From: an uncultured Alphaproteobacteria bacterium
GTDB lineage: Bacteria; Pseudomonadota; Alphaproteobacteria; GCA-002720895
Direction of reading: 5' to 3'
Length of the DNA: 64,000 nucleotides
NCBI GenBank assembly: GCA_902607475.1
Contig: CACLKH010000002.1
Coordinates: forward strand, 20,872-84,871
Of the stretch, positions 9,408 through 58,481 are shown piece by piece (the first letter of the stretch is position 1; each line of letters opens with the position of its first letter). Under the pieces are notes generated by a model. That model was not told the DNA's origin. It did no database searches and was given only the letters and a program-made list of their open reading frames with translations. The translations under genes were made by a program, and so were the position numbers.

Positions 9408-10142
9408 ATGAAAAAATTAAAAAATCCAACTGCATGTGTAATTATTATTGGAAATGAAATCTTATCTGGAAGAACTTTAGATACTAATAAACAGTATTTA
9501 TGTAAAGAATTAACTTTAAACGGTATAGATGTTATTGAAGCAAGAGTGATAAAAGATAACAAAAAAGAAATTATAAATACAGTTAATGAGGTAAGAAAAA
9601 AATACAATTATGTTTTTACAACTGGTGGAATAGGACCGACACATGACGATATTACTTCGATTTCAATAGCAAATGCTTTTAAAGTTAAATTAATAAAAAA
9701 CAAAGAAGCACTATTGATACTAAAGAAATTTTATAATTTAAAAAATGAAAAGCTTAATAAAGCAAGACAAAAAATGGCATTAATACCTAAAGGTGCCGAA
9801 CTCCTACATAATCCAGTAACTAAAGCTGCAGGTTTTAGAATAAAAAATGTTTATGTCATGGCAGGCATACCTAAAATTATGATTGCAATGTTTAAAAAAA
9901 TTATAAAGAAAATTAAACATGGCATACCTGAAATATCTAAAACAATCCTAATAAATTTTCCTGAAAGTTGTATCGCTGAAGATTTAGAAATTATTCAAAA
10001 AAAATTTAATAATATTGAAATAGGTAGTTATCCATTTATGAATGGAAAAAAAAAAGGAGTAAATGTAGTTTTAAAAGGTAGAAATTTAAATCAAATTCGT
10101 AGTGCAGAGAAAGAAATAAAAAAAATAATTAAATTATTATAA
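9408..10142 (+). CDS. CinA-like / MoCF-biosynthesis (molybdopterin-binding) domain protein
   Basis: IIIGNEILSGRTLDTNKQYL and TTGGIGPTHDDIT motifs. I prefer the ATG at 9408 (MKKLKNP..) over the track's TTG at 9375, which overlaps the divergent map start. Confidence 0.75.
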   Translation: MKKLKNPTACVIIIGNEILSGRTLDTNKQYLCKELTLNGIDVIEARVIKDNKKEIINTVNEVRKKYNYVFTTGGIGPTHDDITSISIANAFKVKLIKNKEALLILKKFYNLKNEKLNKARQKMALIPKGAELLHNPVTKAAGFRIKNVYVMAGIPKIMIAMFKKIIKKIKHGIPEISKTILINFPESCIAEDLEIIQKKFNNIEIGSYPFMNGKKKGVNVVLKGRNLNQIRSAEKEIKKIIKLL

Positions 10143-11486
10143 ATTTTTTTCAGAAGTATTTTTCGGAAAAAAAGATAGCAACCATCCTATTAAAAACCAG
10201 AAACAAATTGCGTTCCAATTTGAAAAAATATTTAAAGAAGGCATCATTGGTAATAATTTAGGAAATAACGATAACAATATTCCTAAAGCAATAATTTGAT
10301 TTGAAATAATTCTTTTATTTTTAAAAATTTTTTTGCATGTAGTAACAATAAAAAAAATAAAAAGCAACAAACCTATTAATCCAGTTTCAGCTAACCAAGT
10401 TAAATAAAGATTGTGAGGATGGCTTGAACAAGTCGGCTCATAGTGTTTTTTTAATCCTTGATTATAATGGCCTTTCCAAGGAGATACGCCATAACCTGTG
10501 CCCAAATGCCCTTTTGATAAGAATTTATCTTTTTCACATGCAATTCTATAATTCTTTAAGCCTATACCAAAAATAGGGTGGTGCGTAAACATTTTAAATG
10601 CTGTTAATGAAAGCGAGCCATATGCAGAATTACTGTAATTTTTTATTTCTTCAATAGTTTTATAATACGTATTGTCTTTTTTATTATTTACATTAGAACT
10701 GTATAAAAATGTACCTACAAAAAATATTGTAATTGCAAAAATAATAATTTTTTTTTTATTCCAGAAAAAATAAATCATAAACACTACGGAAGATATAAAG
10801 ATTGATAAAATAGATGCTCTATGACCACTTTCAAAAATTAGATAAATATTTATTATTAGGAAAGATAACAATAAAATTAGTAGGAAATTATATGATAATT
10901 TTTTTTTTATCATTTTTAAAACTCCAAGTATTATTGGAAAAATAAAGTATGATAAGAAAATACCTGATTTAGGTGCATCCTTAAATGGCCCTGATAATCT
11001 ATTATGACCACCAGCAAATTTAGGAGACTCAAATAATAATTCTCTTAGTTCACTGTATAATGAATAACCAGCAAATTTCTCAATCAACATTTCAATATTG
11101 ACATACATTAAAGTAATTAACGTACAAAAAATTAATCTATTTATATTTTTTTTGTTATTTAAAAAAAAGAACTGCAGTGAAGCAGCAAAAATTACGAATC
11201 TTACCCAACTAATAGATCTTGAAAATGCTAACTCTACGTTATAAGCAAAAAAACTTGTAATTATTAACCAAAAATATATTGCTAAGCAAATTTTTACCCA
11301 GGGCTCTTTTAACCACAACCAATTATTATTTTTAACAGAGAGAAAAATAAAAAAAAATGATGCACCTACAGCTATAATATCTGCTATTGAATTACTAAAA
11401 ACCAAAACCAAAGGTATTAAACAAATACACCATGAAATTATATTGGAAATTATTAAAATATTATTTTCGTTATTTTTTTGATACAT
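10137..11486 (-). CDS. O-antigen ligase / Wzy_C-family polytopic membrane protein
   Basis: 449 aa with about 10 or more hydrophobic helices and a large loop. Carries the family motif HPHNLYLTWLAETGLIGLLLF. Confidence 0.7.
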   Translation of the reverse strand: MYQKNNENNILIISNIISWCICLIPLVLVFSNSIADIIAVGASFFFIFLSVKNNNWLWLKEPWVKICLAIYFWLIITSFFAYNVELAFSRSISWVRFVIFAASLQFFFLNNKKNINRLIFCTLITLMYVNIEMLIEKFAGYSLYSELRELLFESPKFAGGHNRLSGPFKDAPKSGIFLSYFIFPIILGVLKMIKKKLSYNFLLILLLSFLIINIYLIFESGHRASILSIFISSVVFMIYFFWNKKKIIIFAITIFFVGTFLYSSNVNNKKDNTYYKTIEEIKNYSNSAYGSLSLTAFKMFTHHPIFGIGLKNYRIACEKDKFLSKGHLGTGYGVSPWKGHYNQGLKKHYEPTCSSHPHNLYLTWLAETGLIGLLLFIFFIVTTCKKIFKNKRIISNQIIALGILLSLFPKLLPMMPSLNIFSNWNAICFWFLIGWLLSFFPKNTSEKNL

Positions 11487-11494
11487 ATTTTTTT

Positions 11495-12211
11495 TTATTT
11501 TTTAAATAAGAAAACTCTTCTAAAATAAAGTTCTATTAATTTAAAAAAACTATAAATAATTTGTAACTTTGGTATTTTAGAATCACCTTTAAATCTATCC
11601 TTAAAATGAATTGGAATCTCACAGCACTTTAATCCTGAATAATAAATGTAAAAGAAAAATTCAATTTGAGAAGAATAATCTTCTGTATTAAATTTAGATT
11701 TACATAATGTTTTTAAACATTTTTTATTATATATTCTATATGATGTTGTAAATTCATAAAATGGCATTTTTAGAAAAAGATTACATAATTTATTAGCTGA
11801 TCTACTTAAAAAATTTCTTATACCTTTGTATTCAGATTTTCCTCCTTTTATATATCTTGAACCAATTATAAAATCATTTCTTTTCAATTTATTTATAAAT
11901 AAAGGAATTTTTTCTGGATCATGCGACAAATCTGCATCCAAAGTAATTATAGCAATATAATTATTTTTTAAGGCAAAATTAAAACCAGTCCTTAATGCAG
12001 AACCAATTCCCATTTTTTCTTTTCTTTTAATAAGAAATAAATTTTTGTATTTCAATTTTAAACGTTTTACAACTCCCGATGTATCATCTGGAGAGTTATC
12101 ATCAATAATAAGTAAATCAATTTTTTTTTTAGTTTTAAAAACTTTTTTACATAGAATTTCTATATTCTCACGTTCATTATAGGTAGGTGCACAAACCAGA
12201 ATTTTTTTCAT
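11495..12211 (-). CDS. Family 2 glycosyltransferase, polyprenyl-phosphate sugar synthase type (Dpm1/ArnC-like)
   Basis: CAPTYNERENI, IIDDNSPDDT, GIGSALRTG and LDADLSHDP motifs. Confidence 0.85.
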   Translation of the reverse strand: MKKILVCAPTYNERENIEILCKKVFKTKKKIDLLIIDDNSPDDTSGVVKRLKLKYKNLFLIKRKEKMGIGSALRTGFNFALKNNYIAIITLDADLSHDPEKIPLFINKLKRNDFIIGSRYIKGGKSEYKGIRNFLSRSANKLCNLFLKMPFYEFTTSYRIYNKKCLKTLCKSKFNTEDYSSQIEFFFYIYYSGLKCCEIPIHFKDRFKGDSKIPKLQIIYSFFKLIELYFRRVFLFKK

Positions 12212-12275
12212 GTTATAATATTTTTTTACTGTTTAAGTATACTTTAAAATTAGCGTTTAATTTCAAAGCTAAACA

Positions 12276-13214
12276 TTAAATTATTTTTTTTTTATAATAA
12301 TCTGCAAGTTCATACATTTTTAAACATTTTCTTTTAGATTCCGATATCATTTCAAAAACTTTTTTTAAATTTTTTATTTTTTCATCTAAAGGAATATTAA
12401 ATCTTTGAAGATAATTTTTATGTTTAAATGATATGTCTTGATTTGATGTGAAATCTGCTGGGTGAAAAAGAAGGTAAAAATACTTATTATTATTTAAAAA
12501 GTTTTTCAATGATTTAAAAAAAAATTTCCATCCAAATACAAATCCCACTGTATACCATAATGGAATATGCAACTTTGATTTAGTAGGTAAAGGCATTATT
12601 AAAATTTGTTTATCTTTGTTTTTAGTATTTTTTTTTAGTGACTTATTTACAAAAAAAGGTTTTGTTGATAATAAAAAATGATGAATCCAATCTTTTCTAT
12701 CAATCATTCTTAAAAATCTTTCAGACCCTATATGATTGAAAGCATTTACAATATAAAATAAAAATAGGCCAAATGATGGAAATATAGAGTGATCATAAGC
12801 ATAATTTAGATCAATTAGTTTACTTATAATTTTTTTTGATATATTCCAACTTGGAGAAATAAATCCCTTCGGTTCTTTTTTAGTACATTTGTATATAATT
12901 TCATGTGTTTTAAATATTTCTTCATTAATTTTATTAACATTTAAAGAACCTAAATTATGAAGATGCGACCAAGAATGGTTCCCAATTTCATGACCAGCAC
13001 TTGACCAATCTCTAACTCTAGAAAAAATTTCTTTATTTTTTAAATCTTTTCCAATTACAAAAATAGAAATTTTAATATTATGTTTATTTATTACATCTAT
13101 AACTCTATCGAAACCTTTAAAATAACTTGGATCTTTAAATTTTTTTGGAAAACCAAGAGACTCATTTATACTATCAAAATTAAGAGATATGGATATTGGT
13201 TCTATTTTTGTCAC
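12276..13214 (-). CDS. Polysaccharide deacetylase (NodB-homology) family protein, ArnD-like candidate
   Basis: SLNFDS.. N-terminus and a GHEIGNHSWSH metal-binding motif. Confidence 0.75.
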   Translation of the reverse strand: MTKIEPISISLNFDSINESLGFPKKFKDPSYFKGFDRVIDVINKHNIKISIFVIGKDLKNKEIFSRVRDWSSAGHEIGNHSWSHLHNLGSLNVNKINEEIFKTHEIIYKCTKKEPKGFISPSWNISKKIISKLIDLNYAYDHSIFPSFGLFLFYIVNAFNHIGSERFLRMIDRKDWIHHFLLSTKPFFVNKSLKKNTKNKDKQILIMPLPTKSKLHIPLWYTVGFVFGWKFFFKSLKNFLNNNKYFYLLFHPADFTSNQDISFKHKNYLQRFNIPLDEKIKNLKKVFEMISESKRKCLKMYELADYYKKKII

Positions 13215-14038
13215 TTATTAAAGTATAAAGCATTTACAAAATCTCTTAACAAAATTATTTTTCCATTTTTTTTTTTAAAAGTAATAAAATCCTTTTTTTT
13301 TGGTATCGAATTATAACTTGAAACAATTTTTTTTTTAAAACAATTTTTTTTATTAATTTTATATATTATTTTAAGTGATTGATAAATATCAAAAGGATAT
13401 TGATTAAAAATTTTTAGATAAAAACCTATCATCGAGATATTTTTTTTTATTTCTCTTTGTAATAACATTTTCCCTGTATCTATCTTTTCTGAAATAACAT
13501 GGTAAGTAACACCTTGCTCCTTATCATTAATTGTGTTCCAAAAAAAAGGCAATATACCTCTGCCATTCGGTAGAATGCTTGCGTGTTTATTAATTATACC
13601 TTTTTTAACACTTCTAATTAATTTTTTTTTTAATATATCCTGTGTTGTTATTAATAAAATATCTATTTTTTTTTCTTTAATCCATTTAATAAAATTTTTT
13701 TGTTCACAATTTTTTATATAAAAAAAAGGTATATTATTTTTTTTACTTAAATCTTCGAAAGAAGATGGGAACTTTCTGATTTGTCTTATTATTTTTGATA
13801 ATAAAGTAAATGTTGTAAGTAAAAAAAAATTTTTTATCCCAAATGTTTTTAAATACCACAAATATAATTTTTTAGGTTTCAAACCAGCCATTTCTTTTCT
13901 AGATATAAAAATGCCTTTCAAAAAAATATTTTTTTTTTTAAATAATTTTATTGTTTTAGCCCATGTTGGCAGTAAAAAAGTTTGGTCATTACTTGTAATA
14001 ACAGCTATGTTAATATTTTGTAATTTTTCTAATTTCAT
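13211..14038 (-). CDS. Formyltransferase-family protein (Fmt / ArnA N-terminal-like)
   Basis: INKHASILPNGRGILPFFW and GVTYHVISEKIDTGKML match the formyl-transferase core (HxSLLPxxRG, D..G). Confidence 0.65.
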   Translation of the reverse strand: MKLEKLQNINIAVITSNDQTFLLPTWAKTIKLFKKKNIFLKGIFISRKEMAGLKPKKLYLWYLKTFGIKNFFLLTTFTLLSKIIRQIRKFPSSFEDLSKKNNIPFFYIKNCEQKNFIKWIKEKKIDILLITTQDILKKKLIRSVKKGIINKHASILPNGRGILPFFWNTINDKEQGVTYHVISEKIDTGKMLLQREIKKNISMIGFYLKIFNQYPFDIYQSLKIIYKINKKNCFKKKIVSSYNSIPKKKDFITFKKKNGKIILLRDFVNALYFNK

Positions 14039-14048
14039 TGCTACTTAC

Positions 14049-15272
14049 CTATTTGAAAATTCTTTGTTTTTTATAATCAAGATAAAAAATTGAAATAAGG
14101 ATTATGCTTGCTGTTAAAAATAACATATATTTATCATGAATGGCAAATGTTGAGAAAATTAATATATATTTAAAAATTTTACTAGCTTTTTTAAAAATAA
14201 ATTTCCAGTTTAAATTAAATAATAAATAATAAATTGAAGGAATTAAAAGAAATCCCTCGTAATCTTTCAATAAAGGATAACAAATTGTAATTATTAAAAT
14301 ACTTATTGATAAAATTTGTTTTTTTGAAATTTTATTATTTTTAAAAAGAATAATAAATATTGATAATAGAAATAAACCACATATTAAAAACCATAAGAAT
14401 TGTAAAAATATTATGTTTTCCTCAAATATTCTAAAAGTAAAAAATTCTGAAAAACCTTTTAATATTGAATAAAAACCAAAACCACCTCCATATAAATTAA
14501 AGAACTCAGGTGATCTCAAATAAGTTAAATGATTTAGAAAGTCAATAAAAATTACGGGGTTATTAAAATAAGAAAATAGATAAAAAGTTAATATTGTACA
14601 TAGAGATATAAATGTATAATTTAAAAATTTTTTTCTTTCGATTAAAAATAATAAAATTAAAAATATTAAATACGTAATTTTAAACAAACACATTACAGTT
14701 AATATTATAAAAACTGGACGCATATTTTTTTTTTCAATGGCGTAATATAAAGATATTCCTAATAAAGAATATAAAATTATAGTAATGTTACCAGTTAGTA
14801 GACCTGTAAAATTTAAACCTCCAAATGAAAAAAAAAAAATTAAAAGAAAAAAAAAAATATTTTTATTTTTAAAAAATATTTCTTTTATTAAAGTTAAATT
14901 TAAAAACAATATAGGAAATATAATTAAGCCCCATAATATAGTAGACCACAATTGTGTGAAATTAGTAAATATTGAAAACATACTAAGTGTAAAAGGAGGG
15001 TAAAAATATTCTAAAGCATTAGGATAACTATTTAAGCATTCTGATAATGCATTTGGTTTATAAGGATTTATATCATTCAAGTAAGTAATAGCGCCGCATC
15101 TGTAGACTATAAAATCTCCAAAAATTGTTCTTCCACCAATTATTACTTTTTCAAAAAAATTTAAAATTATATTAAAAAAAGAAATAAAAAGTGGGGAATA
15201 AAGTAATAAATTTTTAAGCGTACTATTACTAATAAAAGATTTTACATGTTTTATATAATTTTTGTAATACAA
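14049..15272 (-). CDS. Polytopic membrane protein, GT87/DUF2029-like putative GT-C glycosyltransferase
   Basis: 407 aa, highly hydrophobic. N-terminal loop GDFIVYRCGAITYLNDINPY resembles the GT87 loop. Paralog of 48241..49518 (GGLNFTGLLTGNITI vs GGILFKALTTGNISN). Confidence 0.5.
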   Translation of the reverse strand: MYYKNYIKHVKSFISNSTLKNLLLYSPLFISFFNIILNFFEKVIIGGRTIFGDFIVYRCGAITYLNDINPYKPNALSECLNSYPNALEYFYPPFTLSMFSIFTNFTQLWSTILWGLIIFPILFLNLTLIKEIFFKNKNIFFFLLIFFFSFGGLNFTGLLTGNITIILYSLLGISLYYAIEKKNMRPVFIILTVMCLFKITYLIFLILLFLIERKKFLNYTFISLCTILTFYLFSYFNNPVIFIDFLNHLTYLRSPEFFNLYGGGFGFYSILKGFSEFFTFRIFEENIIFLQFLWFLICGLFLLSIFIILFKNNKISKKQILSISILIITICYPLLKDYEGFLLIPSIYYLLFNLNWKFIFKKASKIFKYILIFSTFAIHDKYMLFLTASIILISIFYLDYKKQRIFK

Positions 15273-15332: not shown

Positions 15333-16460
15333 ATGAAAAATTTTAAAAGTAAAACAATTTGTATTATAATTGGGACTAGACCTGAACTCATAAAGCAAAT
15401 TCCCATTTATAATCAATGTGTAAAAAGAATTGGTAGAAAGAATGTTTTATTAATAAATTCTGGACAACATAAAAAGTTTTTAAATTTTTATATAAAAGAA
15501 AAAAAAATAAAATTTGATATAACAATAAGAAATAATGAATCTTCTAAATCTTTAAAAGAAAATTTAATAAATTCAATTGATATTTTTTATAAAATTTTTA
15601 AAAAAATTAAACCAAAAATTGTTCTAGTACAAGGAGATACAACAACTGCTGTTGGTTGTGCATATGCAGCATTTTTAAATGATTCAATTATTGCACATAA
15701 TGAGGCTGGTTTAAGAACTTATGATAACATGAATCCTTACCCAGAAGAATTAAATAGAAAATTTATATCATCTGTAAGTAGCTTGCATTTTGCGCCTACC
15801 AGATTAAATATGATGAATCTCGTTAAAGAAGGAGTTGATAAAAAAAAGATTTTTATTGTTGGCAATCCAGGTATCGATAGTTTTTTTTCATTTTTAAAAA
15901 GAAAAAATGATAACACTGCAAGGAAAATAATACAATATGCTCAAGAAAATTTAAAAAAAATAGTTTTGTTAACTGCTCATAGACGTGAAGCCAGAGGAAA
16001 AAATTTAGATAAATGTTTTAAAACGTTAAAAATATTTTTTAAAAAGAATAAAGATTTACTTTTAGTATGTCCAGAACACCCAAATAAATTTGCATCAGAC
16101 AGTATAAATAAATATTTAAAAAAATTAGAGAATTTTTATTTAACAAAACCATTAAGTTATTTAAGCACATGTAAACTTATATTAAATTCTTTATTTGTTG
16201 TAACAGATTCAGGAGGCATACAGGAAGAGTGCTCTACCATTGGCGTGCCTGTTGTAATATGTAGAAAAAGAACAGAAAGACAAGAAGTTTTAAAATTAAA
16301 AATAGGAAAATTAACAGGTTTTAAATCTGCAGATATATTAAATGCTTTGTGTTGGGCAAAGAAAAAAGGAGTTAATTTAAAGTCATGGGAATTCCGTCCA
16401 TACGGAAATGGAAAAGCTTCAATAGAAATTGTAAATATTATTAAAAAAAAATTAGTTTAA
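15333..16460 (+). CDS. wecB: UDP-N-acetylglucosamine 2-epimerase (non-hydrolysing)
   Basis: GTRPELIK, VQGDTTT, HNEAGLRT, PEELNR and DSGGIQEE motifs. Confidence 0.9.
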   Translation: MKNFKSKTICIIIGTRPELIKQIPIYNQCVKRIGRKNVLLINSGQHKKFLNFYIKEKKIKFDITIRNNESSKSLKENLINSIDIFYKIFKKIKPKIVLVQGDTTTAVGCAYAAFLNDSIIAHNEAGLRTYDNMNPYPEELNRKFISSVSSLHFAPTRLNMMNLVKEGVDKKKIFIVGNPGIDSFFSFLKRKNDNTARKIIQYAQENLKKIVLLTAHRREARGKNLDKCFKTLKIFFKKNKDLLLVCPEHPNKFASDSINKYLKKLENFYLTKPLSYLSTCKLILNSLFVVTDSGGIQEECSTIGVPVVICRKRTERQEVLKLKIGKLTGFKSADILNALCWAKKKGVNLKSWEFRPYGNGKASIEIVNIIKKKLV

Positions 16461-17449
16461 AAATTTTTATATATTTTTTTCGAATTCAAATTAAATCCTA
16501 GAATTTTAATTAAAGTGCCTATGCCAGGTACGATATTACCAATTAAAATAGCAAAAAAAGTTCCAAGAAATAACAGAGGGTTTCTTGATATTTTTGCACT
16601 TTCGAAAAAAACGATAGCTAAATAAAATATTAATATATTGGTATATATTTTTCCCCATATAGGATAAAAAAATGCTATTGGAAAGGATAACAAGAAAACT
16701 AAAAAAAATAAAAAAATCAATGATAAAAAATAAAAAAAATTTTTCTTAATTTTTAATAGATTAATTACCCCTTCACCATAAACTAGTCTTTGTCTAAAAA
16801 AATTTTTTAAGTCTCTACTTTTATGGAAAATTCTTACGTTTGGAGAATATAAAATTTTTTTTCCATTTTTTCTTAGTCTTTCACCAAAATCCCAATCTTC
16901 ACCAGTAACTAAATTAGCATTCATCCCACCTACTTTTTTATATGTTTTTTTTTTTAATATTAAATTACAAGTAGGTAAATAGTTACAATATTTTTCTTTT
17001 TTTAAATTTTTTCGAAAGTTTAATACGGTTACTAAAAAACTTCTTCCAGCATTAGAAACACATTTTTCGATATAACTTTGTGAAGGAAAATCTAGTTCGG
17101 TTCCTCCAACAGCTTCAATATTTTTTTCTTTTAATAATTTTATACCATTTTCTAACCAATCTTTACTTGGATAAGCATCACTATCAAGGAAAGCTATAAA
17201 ACTGGTTTTTGTTAAATTTACTGCAATGTTCCTTTTTTCTCCAATTGAAATTGATCCCGTAGATACTAATTTTGTATTTTTTCTTTGTAATAATGATTTT
17301 TTTTTATCTAAATAATCTAAAACTATAATTATAGGAGTATCAGGATACTTTTTTTTACAAACATCCACACAATTAATTAAATTTTTTTCTATTATTTTTG
17401 CTGGTATAATTATTGTTATATCTTTGAGATTTATTTTTTTTTTTACCAC
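16457..17449 (-). CDS. Family 2 glycosyltransferase with a C-terminal multi-helix membrane anchor
   Basis: IIIPA.. start, FLDSDAYP (DxD) and GEDWDFGERL, then about 4 hydrophobic helices. 7-nt overlap with the upstream radical SAM gene. Confidence 0.8.
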   Translation of the reverse strand: MVKKKINLKDITIIIPAKIIEKNLINCVDVCKKKYPDTPIIIVLDYLDKKKSLLQRKNTKLVSTGSISIGEKRNIAVNLTKTSFIAFLDSDAYPSKDWLENGIKLLKEKNIEAVGGTELDFPSQSYIEKCVSNAGRSFLVTVLNFRKNLKKEKYCNYLPTCNLILKKKTYKKVGGMNANLVTGEDWDFGERLRKNGKKILYSPNVRIFHKSRDLKNFFRQRLVYGEGVINLLKIKKNFFYFLSLIFLFFLVFLLSFPIAFFYPIWGKIYTNILIFYLAIVFFESAKISRNPLLFLGTFFAILIGNIVPGIGTLIKILGFNLNSKKIYKNF

Positions 17450-18534
17450 GATTTCCCAAAAACTGATTCAATTAATTCTGGTTGATATTTAATATTTCCT
17501 AAAATATTTAAAGACCATGCGCAATCATAAGTACAATGACAATTAGTTTTTTTTATCCAATTTTTTACATCTAGAGTTTTTTTATTATGCCAGAGAGATA
17601 AAAAATCATAATTAAAATCTCTTATGTTACCTAGTGGTTTGTCTAAAATTTCACATGGGTAAATTGTTCCTTCTGATCCAATTATTCCAAATAATGATCC
17701 TGCATGGCAAGTGCTTGCAAAATAAGGTTTTAAATACTGTTTTTTCATTATTTTATAAAGCATAAAATTTTTTTTATTAATAATCCTACCTTCCAATGTA
17801 TTTGAATTATAATTTTTTAAATTGTTATTTTTATAATCTTCCAAAATTTTATTTGTTAGATATGTATAAGCTTTTAATATTTTTCTCTTTTTATTTTTTG
17901 GTATTTTATATACGCCTTCATCTCTAACTATATTGGCAGTTATTGAATTTACTTTATAATCTTTTTTTAAAGTATCATAAAGTTTTGGAACATTTTTATA
18001 ATTTTCATGAGAACATGTAATTGCAACATTAACCATTATATTTCCAGATATATTTTTCAAAGATTGGTATGATTTCATTGCTTTTTCAAAAAGATTTGGA
18101 ATTTTTCTTATTTTTGCGTGTTGTTTAGGTAAATCATCAATTGATATAGAAATTAAAACTTTTTTTTTCGGAAATTCTTTACTAATTGATTTGGCAAATT
18201 TAACCATTCTTAAAGGCAAGCTACCATTTGAAGGCATAGTTATTGAATCGATATTTGTGTTTTTAAAGTAACACCTAGCAATGTCTAATATTTCTTTTCT
18301 TGCGAAAGGTTCACCGCCGGTTAAATTTACATTTGTTAGATTTGGACCAAGATTTTTTGTTATTTTATCAATTTCATTTACTGTTAATTCATTTTTAAAT
18401 GTTTTTGGATTATCAAAATCAATAAAACAAAACGAACATCTAGCATTGCATCTATTTGTAACAAAATGAACTAAACTAACAGGGTATTTGCGTGCAATTT
18501 GTAAGTTATATGCTAGTGATAATTTTTTTAACAT
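17443..18534 (-). CDS. Radical SAM protein with a SPASM/twitch-like Cys-rich C-terminal domain
   Basis: CNARCSFC (CxxxCxxC) and NLTGGEPF. C-terminal Cys pattern CHAG..PCEIL..CHCTYDC. Paralogous to the C-terminal half of 45324..47375. Confidence 0.85.
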   Translation of the reverse strand: MLKKLSLAYNLQIARKYPVSLVHFVTNRCNARCSFCFIDFDNPKTFKNELTVNEIDKITKNLGPNLTNVNLTGGEPFARKEILDIARCYFKNTNIDSITMPSNGSLPLRMVKFAKSISKEFPKKKVLISISIDDLPKQHAKIRKIPNLFEKAMKSYQSLKNISGNIMVNVAITCSHENYKNVPKLYDTLKKDYKVNSITANIVRDEGVYKIPKNKKRKILKAYTYLTNKILEDYKNNNLKNYNSNTLEGRIINKKNFMLYKIMKKQYLKPYFASTCHAGSLFGIIGSEGTIYPCEILDKPLGNIRDFNYDFLSLWHNKKTLDVKNWIKKTNCHCTYDCAWSLNILGNIKYQPELIESVFGKSW

Positions 18535-18546
18535 TATTTTATTAGT

Positions 18547-19293
18547 TTAATCAAAAATTCTTAGAATAATTAATTTTAAATAATTAAATATTGTTTTAAC
18601 TACATTCATTTTAGATGCTGTTGGTTTTTTTTTGTAATCTAAAATAATTGGAATTTCAAAAAAATTTATATTAGTTTTTCTAAGTTTTAAAAGAATCTCA
18701 AGTTGCATCTCAAAACCAGCAGCAGGTAAATATTTATTTCCAATAATAGAAAAAAAATTTTCTATTGTTTTTTTATCATACAACCTATAACCAGAAGTAA
18801 AATCTCTTATGCCTTTAGTCATAAAAAAAATATTAAAAATAATAAAAGCTGTTAAAGAAAGTAAGTTTCTTAAAAATGGAACGTTTTTCACAAGACTTCC
18901 TTTTTGAAACCTTGAAGCTATAACAACAAAGTTATCTTTTTTTTCTACCTTTCTAAGCATTGTTATAATTTGATTTGGATTGTGTGTGTTGTCACAATCC
19001 ATTAAAACAAGCTTATCATTACCAATACTTTTTTTTTTAAAAAATAAAATAAGTGTATATAAAGTGTTTCCAAGACCTTTATTTTTTTTATTATTAATGA
19101 TTTTTATATTTAATTTTTTTTGAAATTTTTTTGCATTTAAAAGTGTTTTATCTTTTGAACCATCATTTACAATAATAACTTTAATTTTATTAATTTTTTT
19201 TTTTAAACTAATTATAGATTCTAATACTTTTTTAATTGCTTTTTCTTCGTTAAATGCAGGTAACCCTATCCAAATCGTACAATTATTTAACAT
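18547..19293 (-). CDS. Family 2 glycosyltransferase (Dpm1-like)
   Basis: GLPAFNEEKAI, IVNDGSKDKT, NKGLGN and MDCDNTHNP motifs. Confidence 0.85.
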   Translation of the reverse strand: MLNNCTIWIGLPAFNEEKAIKKVLESIISLKKKINKIKVIIVNDGSKDKTLLNAKKFQKKLNIKIINNKKNKGLGNTLYTLILFFKKKSIGNDKLVLMDCDNTHNPNQIITMLRKVEKKDNFVVIASRFQKGSLVKNVPFLRNLLSLTAFIIFNIFFMTKGIRDFTSGYRLYDKKTIENFFSIIGNKYLPAAGFEMQLEILLKLRKTNINFFEIPIILDYKKKPTASKMNVVKTIFNYLKLIILRIFD

Positions 19294-19395: not shown

Positions 19396-19484
19396 GCCCT
19401 CCTGGCGGAATTGGTAGACGCACAGGACTTAAAATCCTGAGGATCGCAAGATCCGTCCCGGTTCAAGTCCGGGGGAGGGCACCA
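19396..19484 (+). tRNA. tRNA-Leu (anticodon UAA), type II with a long variable arm and encoded CCA
   Basis: Acceptor stem GCCCTCC/GGAGGGC. Anticodon stem CAGGA/TCCTG with loop CT-TAA-AA. T-arm CCCGG-TTCAAGT-CCGGG. Ends in ACCA. It is a GC-rich patch in AT-rich surroundings. Confidence 0.93.
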
Positions 19485-21969: not shown

Positions 21970-22620
21970 ATTTTTCCAATAGGTGACGAAAATCCAACTG
22001 TAAGAAAACCTTTTATAACATACGGGATTCTTGGTTTATGTATTTTGATTTTTTTATGGCAAATTTCACTGCCTGAAGATTTTTTTATGGGAATAAAAAA
22101 TTTTGGGTTAGTTCCTTCAGATATTTACATTTATAAAATTTTTTCTTCCATGTTTTTACATGGAAGTTGGATGCATTTAATTGGTAATATGGCATATCTT
22201 TGGATATTTGGAAATAATATCGAAGATTATTTAGGTCATATAAAGTTTCTAATCTTTTATTTATTTTGCGGAATATGCGCAACTCTTATCCATGTTTTTT
22301 CAGATGTTAATTCTACCATTCCTGTAGTTGGTGCAAGTGGAGCTATTTCAGGAATTTTAGGAGCGTACTTAATACTTTATCCAAGAGCAAAAGTAAAATT
22401 ATTAGTATGGTTTGGAATTGTTACAATTTTAAGAGTTAGGGCGTCAATAGTTTTAATTTTTTGGTTTGTTTATCAATTTTTAAGCGTACTTAAATCAACA
22501 GGTGAAGGAGGAGGGGTTGCATGGTGGGCACATATAGGTGGATTTATTGCTGGAATATTAATAATTTTTTTGTTAGGAAAAAAAAAGTTAGTTGAAAAAG
22601 AAAAGGGACCTTGGGAATAA
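21970..22620 (+). CDS. Rhomboid-family intramembrane serine protease (start uncertain, probably non-canonical)
   Basis: HGSWMHLIGNM, the catalytic GASGAISG motif and the HIGGFIAG His. A conserved-looking N-terminus (FPIGDENPTVRKPFITYGIL) lies upstream of the track's TTG start at 22045. AAGAGGG precedes an in-frame ATT at 21970. Confidence 0.75.
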   Translation: MFPIGDENPTVRKPFITYGILGLCILIFLWQISLPEDFFMGIKNFGLVPSDIYIYKIFSSMFLHGSWMHLIGNMAYLWIFGNNIEDYLGHIKFLIFYLFCGICATLIHVFSDVNSTIPVVGASGAISGILGAYLILYPRAKVKLLVWFGIVTILRVRASIVLIFWFVYQFLSVLKSTGEGGGVAWWAHIGGFIAGILIIFLLGKKKLVEKEKGPWE

Positions 22621-22622
22621 TT

Positions 22623-23495
22623 TTATTTTTTTAATGCCTCAACCATTGTTGTTCCAAGCTCAGCAGGAGATTCTGAAATAATAGTACCTGCAGACTTTAA
22701 AACTTCAATTTTTTCAGGTGCAGTTTCAGCGCCGCTAGATACTATTGCACCAGCATGTCCCATTCTTTTCCCTGGAGGTGCTGTAGCTCCTGCAATAAAA
22801 GCAACAACTGGTTTATTTTTTTCTTTTTTTATAAATTCTGCAGCATCTACTTCGGCTGTTCCCCCAATTTCACCGATCATAATGACACCTTCTGTTTTTT
22901 CATCGGCCATAAATAATTCAAGACATTCTACAAATTTCATACCATTAATAGGATCCCCACCAATTCCTACTACAGTTGTTTGCCCAAGACCAACATCTGT
23001 TGTCTGTTTTCCTGCTTCATAAGATAATGTTCCTGACCTTGAGATAATTCCAATTTTTCCAGGTTTATAAACATATCCTGGCATAATACCCAATTTTGCT
23101 TCGCCGGCTGTGATAATTCCTGGGCAATTTGGTCCTATTAATCTAGATTTTTTTCCTTCAAGATGTTTCCTTACTTTCATCATTTCATGAACAGGTATTC
23201 CATCAGTAATCGCGACAATTAATGGCATTTCTGCATCTATAGACTCTATTATCGCTGCAGCAGCAAATGGAGGTGGAACATAAATTGTAGATGCATTAGC
23301 TCCAGTTTTGTCCATTGCTTCCTTTACAGTATTAAATACCGGTAGATCAAGATGAGTTTGCCCACCTTTTTTTGGTGTTACACCGCCTACAAAATTTGTT
23401 CCATATTTAATTGATTGTTCAGAGTGAAAAGTACCTTGCGCACCTGTAAAACCCTGACATATAACTTTTGTGTTTCTATCAACTAAAATTGACAT
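22623..23495 (-). CDS. sucD: Succinyl-CoA synthetase alpha subunit
   Basis: 290 aa. [19 protein letters not shown] and GHAGAI (phosphohistidine loop). Confidence 0.97.
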
Positions 23496-23497
23496 AA

Positions 23498-24670
23498 TTA
23501 TTTTTTTTCTTTATTTACTGCCTCCACAATTTTTTTCGCTGTTTCACCGAAAGTAGATGCATTTATAAAAGGTAAACCAGATTCTTTTAAAATTTTTCTT
23601 GCCAATTCTATGTTTGTTCCTTCTAATCTGACAACAACAGGCTTTGACATTTTAACTTCATTGGCCGCTGTGACCAGGCCTTCTGCAATAGAATTAGTCC
23701 TCATCATTCCACCGAAAACATTGCACAAAATTCCTTTAACATCTTCATCTGAGTATAATAATTTGAAAGCAGCAGCCACTCTTTCTGGAGTTGCAGCCCC
23801 TGCTATATCCATAAAATTTGCTGGTTTTCCTCCATTTTGTTTAATCAAATCCATTGTTGCCATTGCAAGACCCGCACCATTGACCATCACGCCAACTTCC
23901 CCGTCTAATTTGACATAATTAAGATCATGTTTTTTTGCTTCTAATTCTAAAGGGTCTTCCTCATCTTCATCACGTAGATTTGCAATATCTTCATGCCTGT
24001 AAAAAGAATTTTCATCAAATCCCATTTTTGCATCTAAAGCATAAATATCTTTTTCTTTTGTAATTACCATTGGATTAATTTCTACCATTAATGCCTCAAG
24101 ACTTACTGTTGTTTTATGAATTGCTAGAATAAAATTTGCTGCTTTTTCTATAAGCTCGCCTTCTAAACCTAATTTTAACGCAATGTCTTTAGCTTCATTT
24201 ATTTGCATATCAGAACATGGTTTTAATTTGTGTTTTATTATTTTTTCAGGAGTTTTTTCAGCAACTTCTTCAATTTCCATTCCACCTTCAGTTGAAGCTA
24301 TTACTGTTATTCCATTTGTTTCTCTATCTACAACCATTGAAATATAAAACTCTTTTTCAATATTTGATCCTTCTTCAACATAAAGCTTTTTTACAACCTT
24401 TCCTTTGGGGCCAGTTTGGGGAGTAATAAGAGTTTTACCCATTATTTCATTTGATGCTTTTTCAACTTCTTCAAGTGATTTTACTACTTTAACACCACCT
24501 GCTTTCCCTCTACCTCCAGCATGAATTTGTGCTTTAACAACCCAAATACCAGAATCTAATTCCTTTGCAACATTTATTGCTTCTTCGACCGTAAATGCTA
24601 CTTTGCCATTAGGAACATTAACTCCGTTTTTTGACAATAATTCTTTTGCTTGATATTCGTGAATATTCAA
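23498..24670 (-). CDS. sucC: Succinyl-CoA synthetase beta subunit
   Basis: 390 aa. [12 protein letters not shown] start, ATP-grasp domain, [10 protein letters not shown]. Confidence 0.97.
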
Positions 24671-31240: not shown

Positions 31241-32062
31241 ATGATTAATAAATTTAAAATTATATTGTTAATATTTTTTCAATTAATTTTTTTTAAAAAC
31301 ACTATTTCAAAAGAAGATTCTTTAATAATACAATCTACAACTTCAACCAGAGATTCAGGTTTTTATAATTTTATTTTACCTAAATATAAAATAGTTGATG
31401 ATATTAGAATTAAAGTAATCGCCTCTGGCACCGGGCATGCAATAGTAAATGCAAAAAAATGTGATGCTGATATTGTTTTGGTCCATGATAAAACCTCTGA
31501 AGAATTATTTGTGAAAAACGAGTTCGGTTTATATAGAGAAGATTTAATGTATAATCATTTTCTACTGGTAGGCCCTAAATCATTAAACATTAGTGTTAAT
31601 AATGAAAATATTTATCAAGTATTACAAAAGATTTATGATAATAAATTAACTTTTGTTTCTAGAGGAGATAATAGTGGCACTAATAAAAAAGAAATTAGTT
31701 TATGGAAAAATTTAGGTTTAAAAATAAATACAAGAAAAGATCGTTGGTATTTGGAAACTGGTTCTGGCATGGGGGCTTCTTTAAATATAGCAGTAAATAA
31801 AAATGCTATCACATTAACAGATAGAGCTACATGGATTTCATTCAATAATAAGAGAAATCACACTATTCTTGTTGAAGGTGATGAGGATTTATATAATTAT
31901 TATGGGATTATACCTATCAATCCTAAAAAATGCCCAAAAACCGAGGCCGAGTCATCTGAAAAATTTATTAATTGGCTGTTATCAGATAAAGGCCAGGAAT
32001 TAATAAATTCATTTAGAATAAATGGAGAACAATTATTTTTTGGAAATTCGAAAAAAAATTAA
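31241..32062 (+). CDS. tupA: Periplasmic tungstate-binding protein (TupA-like)
   Basis: Signal-like N-terminus. The TTSTRDSGF motif corresponds to the TTTS.DSGL anion-binding motif of TupA-type proteins. Confidence 0.65.
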   Translation: MINKFKIILLIFFQLIFFKNTISKEDSLIIQSTTSTRDSGFYNFILPKYKIVDDIRIKVIASGTGHAIVNAKKCDADIVLVHDKTSEELFVKNEFGLYREDLMYNHFLLVGPKSLNISVNNENIYQVLQKIYDNKLTFVSRGDNSGTNKKEISLWKNLGLKINTRKDRWYLETGSGMGASLNIAVNKNAITLTDRATWISFNNKRNHTILVEGDEDLYNYYGIIPINPKKCPKTEAESSEKFINWLLSDKGQELINSFRINGEQLFFGNSKKN

Positions 32063-34185
32063 GAAGCTTTTTCTACTTCTACTAAGTTATCAGAAAATGT
32101 CGGAGCATTACCCATATCTGCAAGTAATCCTGAACTAATACTATTTACTGTACCAGTTTTACTTTTTTGTCTCCAGTAACCTAATGTGGCAACAACTATT
32201 CCTGGCGCTACATCTTCTGATATTCTAGCATTTCCATGAAAGTCACCTCTATCATTATAAACTTTTACATTCTCCCCATCTTCTATACCTCTGGTATTAG
32301 CATCAATTTTATTAATTATAACAAATTGTTCACCCTGGACTTTCATTTTACTATCCATATTTGCATATTGTGAATTTAAGAATGCATGACTTTTCGGTGA
32401 AATAATATTAAGTGGATATTTTTTTGCTAATTCAGGATTTGTATTTGGAGACTCTGCTGGAGGAACATAATCTGGCAATTCAGGGAGCGGTTCGCCCGGT
32501 TGGTTTCCCTCATACATTTGACGAAATGGACCGGCTACAAAGTTTTTTGCATTTTTTATAATAAAATTACATTTACCGTCTTCAGTTGCGAAATTACCTT
32601 CTTTATGCGGACAACGATCATCTTTAGTTCCAACATTTAATCGAGCATATCCATTTTTTCTTAAATAATCTAAAGTTATTCCCTTGCTTGCAGGAGCACT
32701 CCAGTCAACATAATTCTCTAGACATTCAGAGTCAGACCATTTAAATTGTTCTTCTTTATATCCCATACTTTCTGCAAGTTTTCGAAAAATTTCGTTATTT
32801 GGCAAAGCTTCTCCTGGAGGATCCAAACATTTTTCATTGTATGTAAGATAGAGATGTCCCCATGATAAAATCATATCTTCAAGTTCAGCACCCATAGCCG
32901 CTGGAAGTACAATATCTGCATATGATGCGGTGTCAGATATGAAGTGTTCAGCAGATACTAAAAACAGATCTTCTCTTTTTAAACCTTTAACTATCTTTTC
33001 TGTTTCAGGAGATTGTGTGACGGGATTAGCATTCCAACACATCATTGATTTAATTGGTATATCAGAATGAGTTTCTCCCAAAAGAGCTCTACCTATTTGA
33101 AGAGCATTTATAACTCTTGTATTTTCAGGAATAAGATCTGGTCTACAAATAACATCAAATTTATAAGGGTGTTCCCAAACTGGAAATTGAGTTATGCCTC
33201 CACCAACATGACGCCATGCGCCAGTTAATGCAGGTATACAAGTTACCGCACGTATTGTTTGTCCACCACCATAATGTCTTTCTAAAGCAACTCCCATTCT
33301 AATACCAGCTGGCTGCACAGTAGCTAATTCAAATGCTAATTTTTTTATATCTTCTGCTTTTACACCAGTTATTTTTGATGCCCATTCAGGGGTTTTTGAT
33401 TTAGCATGATTTTTTAATTCATCAAAACCATTTGTATAATTTTTAACGTATTCATCATCTGTTAAACCTTGTTCTATAATTGAATTAATAACACCCATAG
33501 CTAGCGCACCATCTGTTCCAGGTTTTGGTGATATATGCCAATCAGCTGCTTTAGCAGTTCTTGATTTATAAGAATCAATAACTACAACTTTCGCTCCTTT
33601 TTTTTTCGCATCTTTAATAACAGCCCAATGATGAAGATTTGTACTTACACTATTACAAGCCCAAATGACAATGTATTTTGAGTGTATATAACTTTCAACA
33701 TCTAAGCCTGCTGTTGGACCTACTGTTGATAAGTATGCTGTACAAGATCCTTCTCCGCAGAAGGTTCTTTCACAAACAGTCGCTCCCATTTTATTAAAAA
33801 AAGCATCCGCTCCATTTAATCCGTGGACTAGACCTTGATTACCTAAATAACTATATGGAATGATCGCTTGAGGCCCATATTCTTTAATGATTTCTTTCCA
33901 TTTGTCTGTAATTGTCTTAATTGCTTCAGACCATTTAATTCGTTCGAATTTTTTTTCACCTTTGGCACCAACTCTTTTTAAAGGATATAAGAGTCTATCA
34001 GGATGATAATGCTTCTTATCAAAATCTTTTACTTTCACACAAAGACCTCCTCTTGTATATGCATGATCTTTGTTCCCTGTAACGCTAATAAGTTTATTAT
34101 CCTTTATTTCATAGATCATCGAACATGTATCAGGACAATCATGTGGACAACCTCCAAAACCTTTCTTTACTACACTTTTAAGCAT
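32059..34185 (-). CDS. Cytoplasmic molybdopterin (Mo/W-bisPGD) oxidoreductase, substrate unknown
   Basis: N-terminal Fe-S motif GGCPHDCPDTC and MopB-type domains throughout, with a C-terminal beta-barrel (VKVYNDRGDF). No Tat signal. I prefer the start at MLKSVVKK (34185). The track's extra 23 aa (to 34254) would overlap fdhD. Confidence 0.85.
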   Translation of the reverse strand: MLKSVVKKGFGGCPHDCPDTCSMIYEIKDNKLISVTGNKDHAYTRGGLCVKVKDFDKKHYHPDRLLYPLKRVGAKGEKKFERIKWSEAIKTITDKWKEIIKEYGPQAIIPYSYLGNQGLVHGLNGADAFFNKMGATVCERTFCGEGSCTAYLSTVGPTAGLDVESYIHSKYIVIWACNSVSTNLHHWAVIKDAKKKGAKVVVIDSYKSRTAKAADWHISPKPGTDGALAMGVINSIIEQGLTDDEYVKNYTNGFDELKNHAKSKTPEWASKITGVKAEDIKKLAFELATVQPAGIRMGVALERHYGGGQTIRAVTCIPALTGAWRHVGGGITQFPVWEHPYKFDVICRPDLIPENTRVINALQIGRALLGETHSDIPIKSMMCWNANPVTQSPETEKIVKGLKREDLFLVSAEHFISDTASYADIVLPAAMGAELEDMILSWGHLYLTYNEKCLDPPGEALPNNEIFRKLAESMGYKEEQFKWSDSECLENYVDWSAPASKGITLDYLRKNGYARLNVGTKDDRCPHKEGNFATEDGKCNFIIKNAKNFVAGPFRQMYEGNQPGEPLPELPDYVPPAESPNTNPELAKKYPLNIISPKSHAFLNSQYANMDSKMKVQGEQFVIINKIDANTRGIEDGENVKVYNDRGDFHGNARISEDVAPGIVVATLGYWRQKSKTGTVNSISSGLLADMGNAPTFSDNLVEVEKAS

Positions 34186-38508: not shown

Positions 38509-38519
38509 AAAATAAATTT

Positions 38520-42617: not shown

Positions 42618-42637
42618 AATTTTTAAAATAATAAATT

Positions 42638-58473: not shown

Positions 58474-58481
58474 TTTCTTTA

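What the first reader, a model, noticed from the sequence alone, without database searches (positions are those of the whole stretch)
16457..18534. The same GT2 plus radical SAM pairing recurs as two coupled genes in permuted order (Rosetta-stone support)
**Seen in the sequence.**
- In island 1 a stand-alone radical SAM/SPASM-like protein occupies 17443..18534 (CNARCSFC, GGEPF, CHCTYDC).
- Its stop overlaps by 7 nt the start of a GT2 with about four C-terminal membrane helices (16457..17449).
- The radical SAM protein aligns by eye along its whole length with the C-terminal half of the fusion at 45324..47375. Examples are TNRCNARCSFCF vs TARCNLRCQHCF, and PCEILDKPLGNI...CHCTYDCAWS vs SCEILSDNLGKI...CKCTYECAMS.
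- Module order differs. The split locus runs rSAM then GT2-TM, whereas the fusion runs GT2-TM then rSAM. The fusion is therefore not simply a read-through of the split arrangement.

**Inference.** Two independent linkages of the same module pair in one 64 kb window argue strongly that the two activities work together.
Basis: partly seen in the sequence, partly recalled or inferred. Interest (0 to 1): 0.65.

Follow-up and report, generated by a model that had tools for sequence, protein, structure and literature searches.

The report
Paired radical-SAM and membrane glycosyltransferase module
A radical-SAM enzyme and a membrane-anchored sugar transferase occur here as overlapping genes and again as one fused protein, and the same pairing is kept across many bacteria and archaea, so they almost certainly act together on a cell-envelope sugar, by chemistry not yet known.

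Summary
ORFs 17443..18534 (radical SAM, 363 aa) and 16457..17449 (GT2 with C-terminal membrane segments, 330 aa) overlap by 7 nt. ORF 45324..47375 is a GT2-membrane-rSAM fusion of 683 aa.

- **rSAM homology.** The two rSAM modules belong to specific sister families (hhalign E 1.9e-59 over 352 columns). No curated family or solved structure scores above about 71 bits.
- **GT2 homology.** The two GT2 modules are reciprocal best hits in the window. They are closer to each other (E 3.4e-24) than to the small DPM1-like GT2s.
- **Linkage.** In 73 assessable species genomes, the stand-alone rSAM lies next to this GT2 in 67. Both gene orders occur (52 rSAM>GT2, 11 GT2>rSAM). Fused forms appear in the main fusion family and at five scattered tree positions.
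- **Context.** Neighbours are always sugar-nucleotide, polyprenyl-phosphate or large membrane-protein (some GT-C-like) glycan genes. None are peptide-maturation genes.

The Rosetta-stone reading is therefore supported. The most likely function is to glycosylate a membrane-bound envelope glycan intermediate and then tailor it by radical chemistry. The exact reaction is inferred only. I found no literature on this pairing. I rate it a new variant of a known kind, of moderate interest.

The parts
17443..18534 (-). Stand-alone radical SAM enzyme (family A, 363 aa). It has the cluster motif C29-x3-C33-x2-C36, a GGEPF motif, and five conserved C-terminal Cys (C276, C294, C332, C334, C338).
   Evidence: The AlphaFold model has pLDDT 88.7. 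The nearest folds are anSME, SkfB and BlsE.
16457..17449 (-). MftF-like GT2 glycosyltransferase (family GT2A, 330 aa). It has a D89-S-D91 motif and a C-terminal membrane region. It is the conserved partner of the rSAM.
   Evidence: An orthologue lies adjacent to the rSAM in most genomes.
17443..17449 (-). 7-nt overlap GTGGTAA between the rSAM stop codon and the GT2 GTG start, suggesting translational coupling. An 11-nt A run follows at 17434..17444.
   Evidence: The same start is used in public gene calls. Most of the 65 orthologous pairs have gaps of only a few nt either way.
18547..19293 (-). Small DPM1/PpgS-like GT2 (248 aa), 12 nt upstream of the rSAM. This family is the most frequent third neighbour.
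   Evidence: The family is found in 33-35 of about 80 family-A loci and 20 of 80 family-B loci.
45324..47375 (-). GT2-membrane-rSAM fusion (family B, 683 aa).
   Evidence: The AlphaFold model has pLDDT 86.3 and pTM 0.88. No solved structure spans both domains.
46701..47375 (-). Fusion residues 1-225: GT-A catalytic domain (D83, D85, E169-D170 invariant) plus an interface helix.
46446..46679 (-). Fusion residues 233-310: two membrane helices and a third hydrophobic segment.
45324..46370 (-). Fusion residues 336-683: rSAM domain (C350, C354, C357, GGEPF) with conserved Cys C594, C612, C651, C653, C657.
41670..45319 (-). Genes downstream of the fusion: nucleotide-sugar dehydrogenase (44111..45319), RmlD-like reductase (43356..44111), small GT2 (42638..43363) and SDR epimerase/dehydratase (41670..42695). 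The set recurs next to family-B fusions elsewhere.
   Evidence: The same order is seen in L090/L091 and in L096, L104, L113-L115 and L166.
14049..15272 (-). GT87-like polytopic membrane protein (probable GT-C) of island 1. It is a paralogue of 48241..49518.
   Evidence: 26.9 bits, cut-off 25. (26% identity over 372 residues, E 6e-18).
48241..49518 (-). GT87-like polytopic membrane protein of island 2.
   Evidence: 23.9 bits, just under the cut-off of 25..

Best explanation
The gene pair and the fusion encode one conserved two-part enzyme. One part is an MftF-like GT2 glycosyltransferase held in the inner membrane. The other is a twitch-type radical SAM enzyme that sits against it on the cytoplasmic side.

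**Shown**
- Both parts are homologous between the split and fused forms.
- The linkage is kept across bacteria and archaea.
- The neighbours are sugar-nucleotide, polyprenyl-phosphate-sugar and large membrane-protein (some GT-C-like) genes.

**Inferred**
- The GT2 adds a sugar from a nucleotide sugar to a membrane-bound acceptor. The acceptor is most likely a polyprenyl-phosphate-linked intermediate of an envelope glycan.
- The rSAM domain then abstracts a hydrogen atom from that sugar.
- With its auxiliary Fe-S cluster, the rSAM completes an oxidative tailoring step. Candidates are dehydrogenation, epimerisation, decarboxylation or ring rearrangement.
- The product is then flipped and transferred outside the membrane.

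My confidence in functional coupling within glycan synthesis is about 0.85. My confidence in the order of steps and a lipid-linked substrate is about 0.35.
For: **Homology**
- rSAM modules: hhalign probability 100, E 1.9e-59, 352 columns.
- GT2 modules: E 3.4e-24, score 176. Scores against small GT2s are 64 and 101.
- Both GT2s share MftF as their top curated hit.

**Linkage**
- 67 of 73 species genomes have the pair adjacent, mostly with gaps of a few nt.
- Gene order changed at least four times while adjacency was kept.
- Fused GT2>rSAM forms are found in family B, where nearly all of the 120 listed relatives of the fusion (of 202 hits) are about 670-760 aa and carry both domain types, and at five scattered positions among stand-alone clades.

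**Tethering**
- The rSAM domain starts right after the last hydrophobic segment. The fusion model has pTM 0.88.

**Context**
- Neighbours include a nucleotide-sugar dehydrogenase, SDRs, WecB, formyltransferases, deacetylases (one HpnK-like at 158 bits), a UbiA relative of decaprenyl-phosphate phosphoribosyltransferase, small DPM1-like GT2s, GT87-like proteins and DUF6044.
- Both islands in the window hold the same four paralogous parts.

**Cluster site and folds**
- The C-x12-G-x4-C motif plus CxCx3C is conserved in both families.
- Fold neighbours include the sugar-acting enzymes BlsE and DesII.
Against: - No biochemical data exist.
- The acceptor is unknown.
- The GT2 resembles transferases that act on an existing glycoside or small molecule (MftF, EpsD, AglG) more than polyprenyl-phosphate sugar synthases.
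- The neighbouring sugar-precursor genes differ between operon types. The constant pair therefore may not act on the variable sugar.
- The third hydrophobic segment leaves the membrane topology uncertain: three full crossings would put the rSAM domain on the wrong side.
- The nearest folds are equally close to peptide-modifying enzymes.
- The trees are neighbour-joining without support values.
Confidence: 0.6

Rival explanations
1. The rSAM acts first, on a soluble nucleotide sugar, and makes an unusual donor that the GT2 then transfers. The two are coupled by substrate channelling rather than by acting on a lipid-linked product.
For: - Fold and sequence neighbours include nucleotide- or nucleoside-sugar enzymes: MoaA, viperin, BlsE and DesII.
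- Sugar-nucleotide genes lie next to both families.
Against: - The fusion places the rSAM after the membrane segments rather than next to the catalytic GT-A domain in sequence.
- The variable sugar-precursor genes around a constant pair argue against a single donor.
- Neither point is decisive.
Confidence: 0.22
2. A mycofactocin-like or peptide-maturation system. The SPASM-type rSAM would modify a small peptide or a cofactor precursor, and the MftF-like GT2 would then glycosylate it.
For: - The top curated hit of both GT2s is MftF (98.8 and 38.3 bits).
- The rSAM hits peptide maturases such as SkfB, WgkB and PapB at 55-61 bits.
- A GMC oxidoreductase next to some fusions has MftG as its weak best hit at 38 bits.
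Against: - All these scores are far below the family cut-offs.
- The rSAM begins 18 residues before the cluster motif and has only one N-terminal helix, so there is no peptide-recognition domain.
- Only 12 nt separate it from the upstream GT2, leaving no room for a precursor gene.
- None of the neighbour proteins that were scanned matched an MftA, MftB, MftD or MftE family.
Confidence: 0.04
3. The rSAM uses SAM as a building block, as HpnH and ArsS do. It would add the 5'-deoxyadenosyl group to a substrate, and the GT2-like enzyme would then act on the resulting riboside.
For: Both GT2s hit TIGR04283, the arsenosugar-associated MftF-like family, which NCBI names for a pathway that includes an rSAM. 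The scores are 31.9, 35.9 and, for L061, 89 bits.
Against: - The scores are below the cut-off of 182.
- The rSAM carries an auxiliary-cluster domain typical of hydrogen-abstracting oxidative enzymes.
- No nucleosidase gene was seen among the neighbours that were scanned.
Confidence: 0.05
4. Coincidence: glycan islands are rich in GT2 and rSAM genes, so the window merely holds two unrelated neighbourings.
For: The window has six GT2 modules.
Against: - The specific sister-family relations hold for both modules.
- Adjacency is seen in 67 of 73 genomes.
- A large fusion family exists.
Confidence: 0.01

Closest known systems
HpnI / HpnK / HpnJ (hopanoid cyclitol-ether pathway)
   Same: A membrane GT2 puts a sugar on a membrane lipid, a deacetylase trims it, and an rSAM enzyme rearranges the lipid-linked sugar (PMC12583986, read). 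Some fusion loci carry an HpnK-like YdjC (158 bits), an HpnA-like SDR (78 bits) and B12-rSAMs with HpnJ among their top hits.
   Different: HpnJ is a B12-binding-domain rSAM, whereas this one is twitch-type with no B12 domain. HpnI scores only 17.8 bits against a cut-off of 310. The context here is polyprenyl-phosphate and GT-C-like glycan genes, with no hopanoid genes seen.
Mycofactocin MftC (rSAM/SPASM) and MftF (GT2)
   Same: MftF is the best curated match for both GT2 modules. That system also pairs a SPASM-class rSAM with a membrane GT2 in one pathway.
   Different: The scores are far below the cut-offs. There is no precursor peptide, no recognition domain and no MftB, MftD or MftE. The neighbours are glycan genes.
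Twitch/SPASM rSAM enzymes acting on sugars (BlsE cytosylglucuronate decarboxylase, DesII; also BtrN, from my own knowledge)
   Same: The core fold is the same, with a C-terminal auxiliary-cluster hairpin. BlsE has target-normalised TM-score 0.67 and DesII is also matched. A nucleotide-sugar dehydrogenase sits beside the fusion, as a uronic-acid substrate would require.
   Different: Sequence similarity is only about 31 bits. Those enzymes are soluble and act on small molecules. None is fused or tethered to a membrane glycosyltransferase.
Arn and decaprenyl-phospho-arabinose pathways (tailoring of a polyprenyl-phosphate-linked sugar before GT-C transfer; established knowledge)
   Same: The logic of modifying a sugar while it is on the lipid carrier is the same. 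Parts present here include an ArnC-like GT2 (53.9 bits), a formyltransferase, a deacetylase, GT87-like membrane proteins and, elsewhere, UbiA-like, oxidoreductase and SDR genes.
   Different: Those pathways use hydrolases or flavin and NAD enzymes for the tailoring step. No rSAM enzyme is known in them.

Membership tests
Radical SAM superfamily (PF04055) | CxxxCxxC cluster motif, a GGE SAM-binding motif, and a Pfam score above the cut-off | tested here: met
   C29/C33/C36 with G73-G74-E75 in the stand-alone protein. C350/C354/C357 with G393-G394-E395 in the fusion. All are invariant. Scores are 56.7 and 47.2 bits against a cut-off of 29.5.
Canonical SPASM domain (PF13186) | Seven-Cys motif binding two auxiliary clusters, and a Pfam score above the cut-off | tested here: not met
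   Only five Cys are conserved, as C-x17-C...CxCx3C. The score is 19.4 bits against a cut-off of 21.5. Some homologues do carry a precomputed SPASM hit.
Twitch-type auxiliary-cluster domain | A C-x9-15-G-x4-C hairpin after the core, plus further Cys ligands | tested here: met
   C276-x12-G289-x4-C294 is followed by C332, C334 and C338. The same pattern occurs in the fusion. The hairpin strands 282-285 and 290-292 appear in the model. Cluster binding itself was not tested.
Peptide-modifying rSAM maturases | A peptide-recognition (RRE) domain or partner, and a precursor peptide gene | tested here: not met
   Only one helix (residues 2-14) precedes the core. There is a 12-nt gap to the upstream gene. 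No such partner was found among the neighbours that were scanned.
GT2 glycosyltransferases (PF00535, GT-A fold) | A Pfam score above the cut-off, and a DxD motif | tested here: met
   Scores are 37.2 and 33.0 bits against a cut-off of 23.3. The motifs are D89-S-D91 in the stand-alone GT2 and D83-D-D85 in the fusion. GT-A fold matches are seen.
MftF (TIGR03965) | A score above the curated cut-off of 280, and a mycofactocin gene context | tested here: not met
   Scores are 98.8 and 38.3 bits. No mycofactocin genes are nearby.
HpnI / HpnJ | HpnI score above 310; an rSAM with a B12-binding domain; a hopanoid gene context | tested here: not met
   HpnI scores 17.8 bits. The rSAM has no B12-binding domain. 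No hopanoid genes were seen in the window scans.
Polyprenyl-phosphate sugar synthases (ArnC, GtrB, DPM1 type) | Transfer of a sugar to polyprenyl phosphate | not testable with these tools
   The overall size and architecture are similar. The curated models of this type match the small GT2s of the window, not the GT2-membrane module.
Rosetta-stone (fusion-based) functional link | Both halves of a fusion are homologous to separate proteins that co-occur | tested here: met
   homology; adjacency in 67 of 73 genomes; fusions.

The most novel reading that the evidence does not exclude
The pair is a membrane-bound machine that first attaches a sugar to a lipid carrier and then rebuilds it by radical chemistry into something hydrolases cannot easily recognise. 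Examples would be a carbocyclic or ring-contracted sugar, as HpnJ makes on hopanoids, or a C-C linked unit. That would define an unrecognised class of envelope sugar in SAR11-type marine bacteria, DPANN archaea and many uncultured lineages.
Probability: 0.15. Interest if true: 0.8.

Novelty: new variant of a known kind. Interest (0 to 1): 0.55.

Why it matters
Radical SAM enzymes that tailor sugars are known mostly from antibiotic pathways and from hopanoid head groups. Here a distinct twitch-type family is locked to a membrane GT2, either by translational coupling or by fusion.

- The family-A rSAM is found in at least 286 species genomes.
- The rSAM superfamily has about 1,200 clusters at 50% identity.
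- It sits in the variable envelope-glycan islands of very abundant marine bacteria.

If the chemistry is worked out, it would add a new reaction to envelope glycan biosynthesis and could help explain surface diversity in these organisms. Cultured carriers make it testable. These include Anaerobacterium chartisolvens DSM 27016 (L061) and the complete Pelagibacter genomes (L045, L072).

Tried and rejected
- **Literature.** Five full-text searches on radical SAM with glycosyltransferase, SPASM, Pelagibacter, undecaprenyl, O-antigen or domain fusion found nothing on this pairing.
- **Fold search.** It gave only generic SPASM/twitch and GT-A neighbours. No structure spans both domains.
- **Mirror-tree test.** The correlation between the rSAM and its GT2 partner was Pearson 0.67 and Spearman 0.46. 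That is no better than for the small GT2 (0.67 and 0.13), so it is uninformative.
- **Viral contigs.** There was one true family-A hit and no family-B hit, so the module is not phage-borne.
- **First adjacency count.** It wrongly pooled upstream and downstream partners. This was corrected.
- **Apparent split forms of family B.** P0157 looks like a broken fusion. P0217 is a genuine solo rSAM with one membrane helix and no GT2 on its 3.3-kb contig.
- **GT2 homology search.** The word-indexed search found only 40 relatives, all stand-alone, and no rSAM>GT2 fusion.
- **Neighbour counts for divergent membrane proteins.** Single-sequence phmmer has low sensitivity here. A crude count of ORFs with at least seven hydrophobic segments found them in 51 of 80 family-A loci and 41 of 80 family-B loci, but I had no background rate to compare with.
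Full report
**1. The observation**

The three ORFs are as described, all on the minus strand: 17443..18534 (363 aa), 16457..17449 (330 aa, GTG start) and 45324..47375 (683 aa).
- The rSAM stop and the GT2 start share GTGGTAA, a 7-nt overlap. Public gene calls on an 87-kb NCBI contig give exactly the same 330-aa product.
- Pfam finds Radical_SAM (56.7 bits) with a sub-threshold SPASM hit in the first ORF, and GT2 families in the second. In the third it finds GT2 (residues 10-180) followed by Radical_SAM (residues 346-503).
- No curated NCBIfam model reaches its cut-off. The best are NirJ2 at 71 bits for the rSAM and MftF at 98.8 bits for the GT2.
- The window has about 25% G+C. Its closest relatives are marine Alphaproteobacteria and Pelagibacteraceae.

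**2. Are the modules the same?**

rSAM modules:
- BLASTP aligns the stand-alone rSAM with the C-terminal half of the fusion end to end: 29% identity, 349 residues, E 3e-38.
- Each belongs to a large, tight family. Family A had 1002 hits, typically 50-57% identical and about 363 aa. For family B, 202 proteins passed E 1e-5; of the 120 listed, nearly all are about 670-760 aa and carry both domain types.
- The profile-profile comparison of the two families gives probability 100, E 1.9e-59, over 352 columns.
- The best solved structure by sequence is SkfB at only 60 bits.
- Both families conserve the same five C-terminal Cys, C-x12-G-x4-C then CxCx3C. That is a twitch-like site, not the seven-Cys SPASM motif.

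GT2 modules:
- They are weaker relatives: 26% identity over 142 residues, E 6e-7.
- They are reciprocal best hits among the six GT2 modules of the window. Neither hits the four small GT2s (E above 0.6).
- Their family profiles align over the whole catalytic domain with E 3.4e-24 and score 176. Against the small DPM1-like GT2 family the scores are 64 and 101.
- Both have MftF as their top curated hit.
- The membrane regions do not align, but the hydropathy layout is the same.

**3. Is the linkage conserved?**

A scan of one genome per GTDB species found family A in 286 genomes, and 80 loci were kept. They come from Alphaproteobacteria, Actinobacteria, Chitinophagales, Lentisphaerae, Bdellovibrionia, Geobacter, Clostridia, Melainabacteria, Methanosarcinales and DPANN archaea.

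Of the 73 loci with an intact rSAM ORF and enough flanking sequence:

| Arrangement | Loci |
|---|---|
| rSAM then GT2, same strand, adjacent | 52 |
| GT2 then rSAM, same strand, adjacent | 11 |
| Convergent | 3 |
| Divergent | 1 |
| GT2 2.5 kb away | 1 |
| No clear partner | 5 |

- Most gaps are a few nt either way.
- Outside Pelagibacteraceae, the pair is adjacent in 41 of 46 genomes.
- In Anaerobacterium chartisolvens (L061) a family-A rSAM is followed by a GT2 that resembles the fusion's GT2 (159.6 bits).
- A neighbour-joining tree separates families A and B cleanly. It places the GT2>rSAM order at four or more separate positions within A.
- An exhaustive profile search of 1.84 billion representatives found 1196 proteins at E up to 1e-30. 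Among the best 150 there are five further GT2>rSAM fusions. They lie scattered among stand-alone clades, outside family B proper.

The pairing has therefore survived repeated rearrangement and has been fused or split several times. These trees carry no support values.

**4. Context**

The only near-universal neighbour of the rSAM is the GT2. Next comes a small DPM1/PpgS-like GT2, in 33-35 of about 80 family-A loci and 20 of 80 family-B loci. After that come B12-rSAMs, AsnB-like amidotransferases and SDRs.

Family B, sampled from 80 metagenome loci, shows recurrent operon types:
- Fusion, nucleotide-sugar dehydrogenase, small GT2, SDR. This is the window's type and is also seen in a Dehalococcoidales MAG.
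- GMC oxidoreductase, UbiA-like protein, fusion, SDR, in about 17 loci. The nearest named relatives of the UbiA-like protein are decaprenyl-phosphate phosphoribosyltransferases, at 55-58 bits.
- An 8-segment membrane protein, fusion, HpnK-like YdjC deacetylase (158 bits), formyltransferase, B12-rSAM.
- Types with 6PGD-like and FGGY kinase genes, or with HAD and nucleotidyltransferase-like genes and DUF6044.

In the window:
- Island 1 holds a Wzy_C protein, an ArnC-like GT2, a deacetylase, a formyltransferase, a GT87-like membrane protein and WecB beside the pair.
- Island 2 holds methyltransferases, DUF6044, the dehydrogenase/SDR set, a TylF methyltransferase and a second GT87-like protein.
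- The two GT87-like proteins are themselves paralogues (E 6e-18). The window therefore carries two copies of a four-part toolkit, not just of the pair.
- No peptide-maturation genes were seen among the neighbours that were scanned.

**5. Structure**

- The rSAM model is confident (pLDDT 88.7). It has a single N-terminal helix before the core, which leaves no room for a peptide-recognition domain.
- Its nearest folds are anSME, SkfB, CteB, SuiB, BlsE, MoaA, viperin and DesII, all at TM-scores of about 0.5-0.67.
- The fusion model has pLDDT 86.3 and pTM 0.88. It shows a GT-A domain, an interface helix (200-220), helices 233-251 and 257-277, and a long helix 282-334 that runs into the rSAM core.
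- Basic residues on both sides of the third hydrophobic segment suggest that it does not fully cross the membrane. That would keep both catalytic domains cytoplasmic. This point is inferred, not shown.

**6. Interpretation**

Shown: the two modules are a conserved functional unit embedded in envelope-glycan loci.

Inferred: the GT2 glycosylates a membrane-bound acceptor, probably polyprenyl-phosphate-linked, and the tethered rSAM then tailors that sugar oxidatively.

The closest working analogy is HpnI/HpnK/HpnJ, where a lipid-linked sugar is deacetylated and then rearranged by an rSAM enzyme (PMC12583986). The Arn and decaprenyl-phospho-arabinose pathways share the logic of tailoring a sugar on its carrier. 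The module is not a member of any of these families by score or by domain content.

Rivals:
- The main rival is that the rSAM makes an unusual soluble donor for the GT2.
- A mycofactocin-like peptide system is unlikely.
- Chance is excluded.

**7. Verdict**

The finding is real and its interpretation is supported, with two refinements. The fusion's gene order also exists as split genes elsewhere. The two linkages in the window are paralogous rather than strictly independent. The family is uncharacterised and widespread. I rate it a new variant of a known kind (a radical SAM sugar-tailoring enzyme, here bound to a membrane GT2), with interest about 0.55.

Noticed in passing
window 14049..15272 and 48241..49518; also 18547..19293, 11495..12211, 42638..43363 and 49533..50315: Both glycan islands carry the same four paralogous parts: a small DPM1-like GT2, a GT87-like membrane protein, the MftF-like GT2 and the rSAM. 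The two GT87-like proteins are 26% identical over 372 residues (E 6e-18). The small GT2s are also related to one another.
   Followed up: partly
window 10137..15272: This is an Arn-like gene set. It holds a Wzy_C/O-antigen-ligase-like protein, a GT2 whose best curated hit is the undecaprenyl-phosphate Ara4FN transferase (53.9 bits), a PF01522 deacetylase, a formyltransferase and a GT87-like membrane protein.
   Followed up: partly
window 17434..17444: An 11-nt run of A starts inside the rSAM stop codon and covers codons 2-5 of the GT2. It could be slippage-prone, or it could simply reflect the 25% G+C content.
   Followed up: no
window 19396..19484: A tRNA-Leu(TAA) gene lies at the edge of island 1. 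The islands have 0.20-0.24 G+C, against 0.33-0.35 in segments such as 22001..24000, 32001..34000 and 56001..60000.
   Followed up: no
L142, L145, L149, L153, L155-L164 (metagenome loci): A recurrent operon reads GMC oxidoreductase, UbiA-like protein, GT2-rSAM fusion, SDR. The layout recalls the decaprenyl-phospho-arabinose pathway, with a different oxidase family.
   Followed up: partly
L116, L119, L120, L124, L126-L128, L146: An HpnK-like YdjC deacetylase (158 bits to HpnK) lies directly beside the fusion. A formyltransferase and a B12-binding rSAM are often nearby.
   Followed up: partly
L061 (Anaerobacterium chartisolvens DSM 27016); L045 and L072 (complete Pelagibacter genomes): These are cultured or completely sequenced carriers of the pair. 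L061 combines a family-A rSAM with a GT2 that resembles the fusion's GT2, an intermediate form.
   Followed up: partly
L010 with L015; L011 with L019: Single genomes (a Rhodospirillales MAG and a Rhodospirillaceae MAG) carry two family-A copies on different contigs, so multiple paralogous modules per genome are common.
   Followed up: no
window 36595..38508 and 38484..40412: Two adjacent ORFs of about 640 aa. The second is DUF6044 and the first has no Pfam hit. A six-segment DUF6044 protein also recurs next to family-B fusions (L137-L150).
   Followed up: no
L092 1554..2840: This is a family-B-type rSAM with one N-terminal membrane helix and no GT2 domain (428 aa). It is flanked by hydrophobic, probably membrane, proteins, so the rSAM can occasionally be membrane-anchored on its own.
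   Followed up: partly
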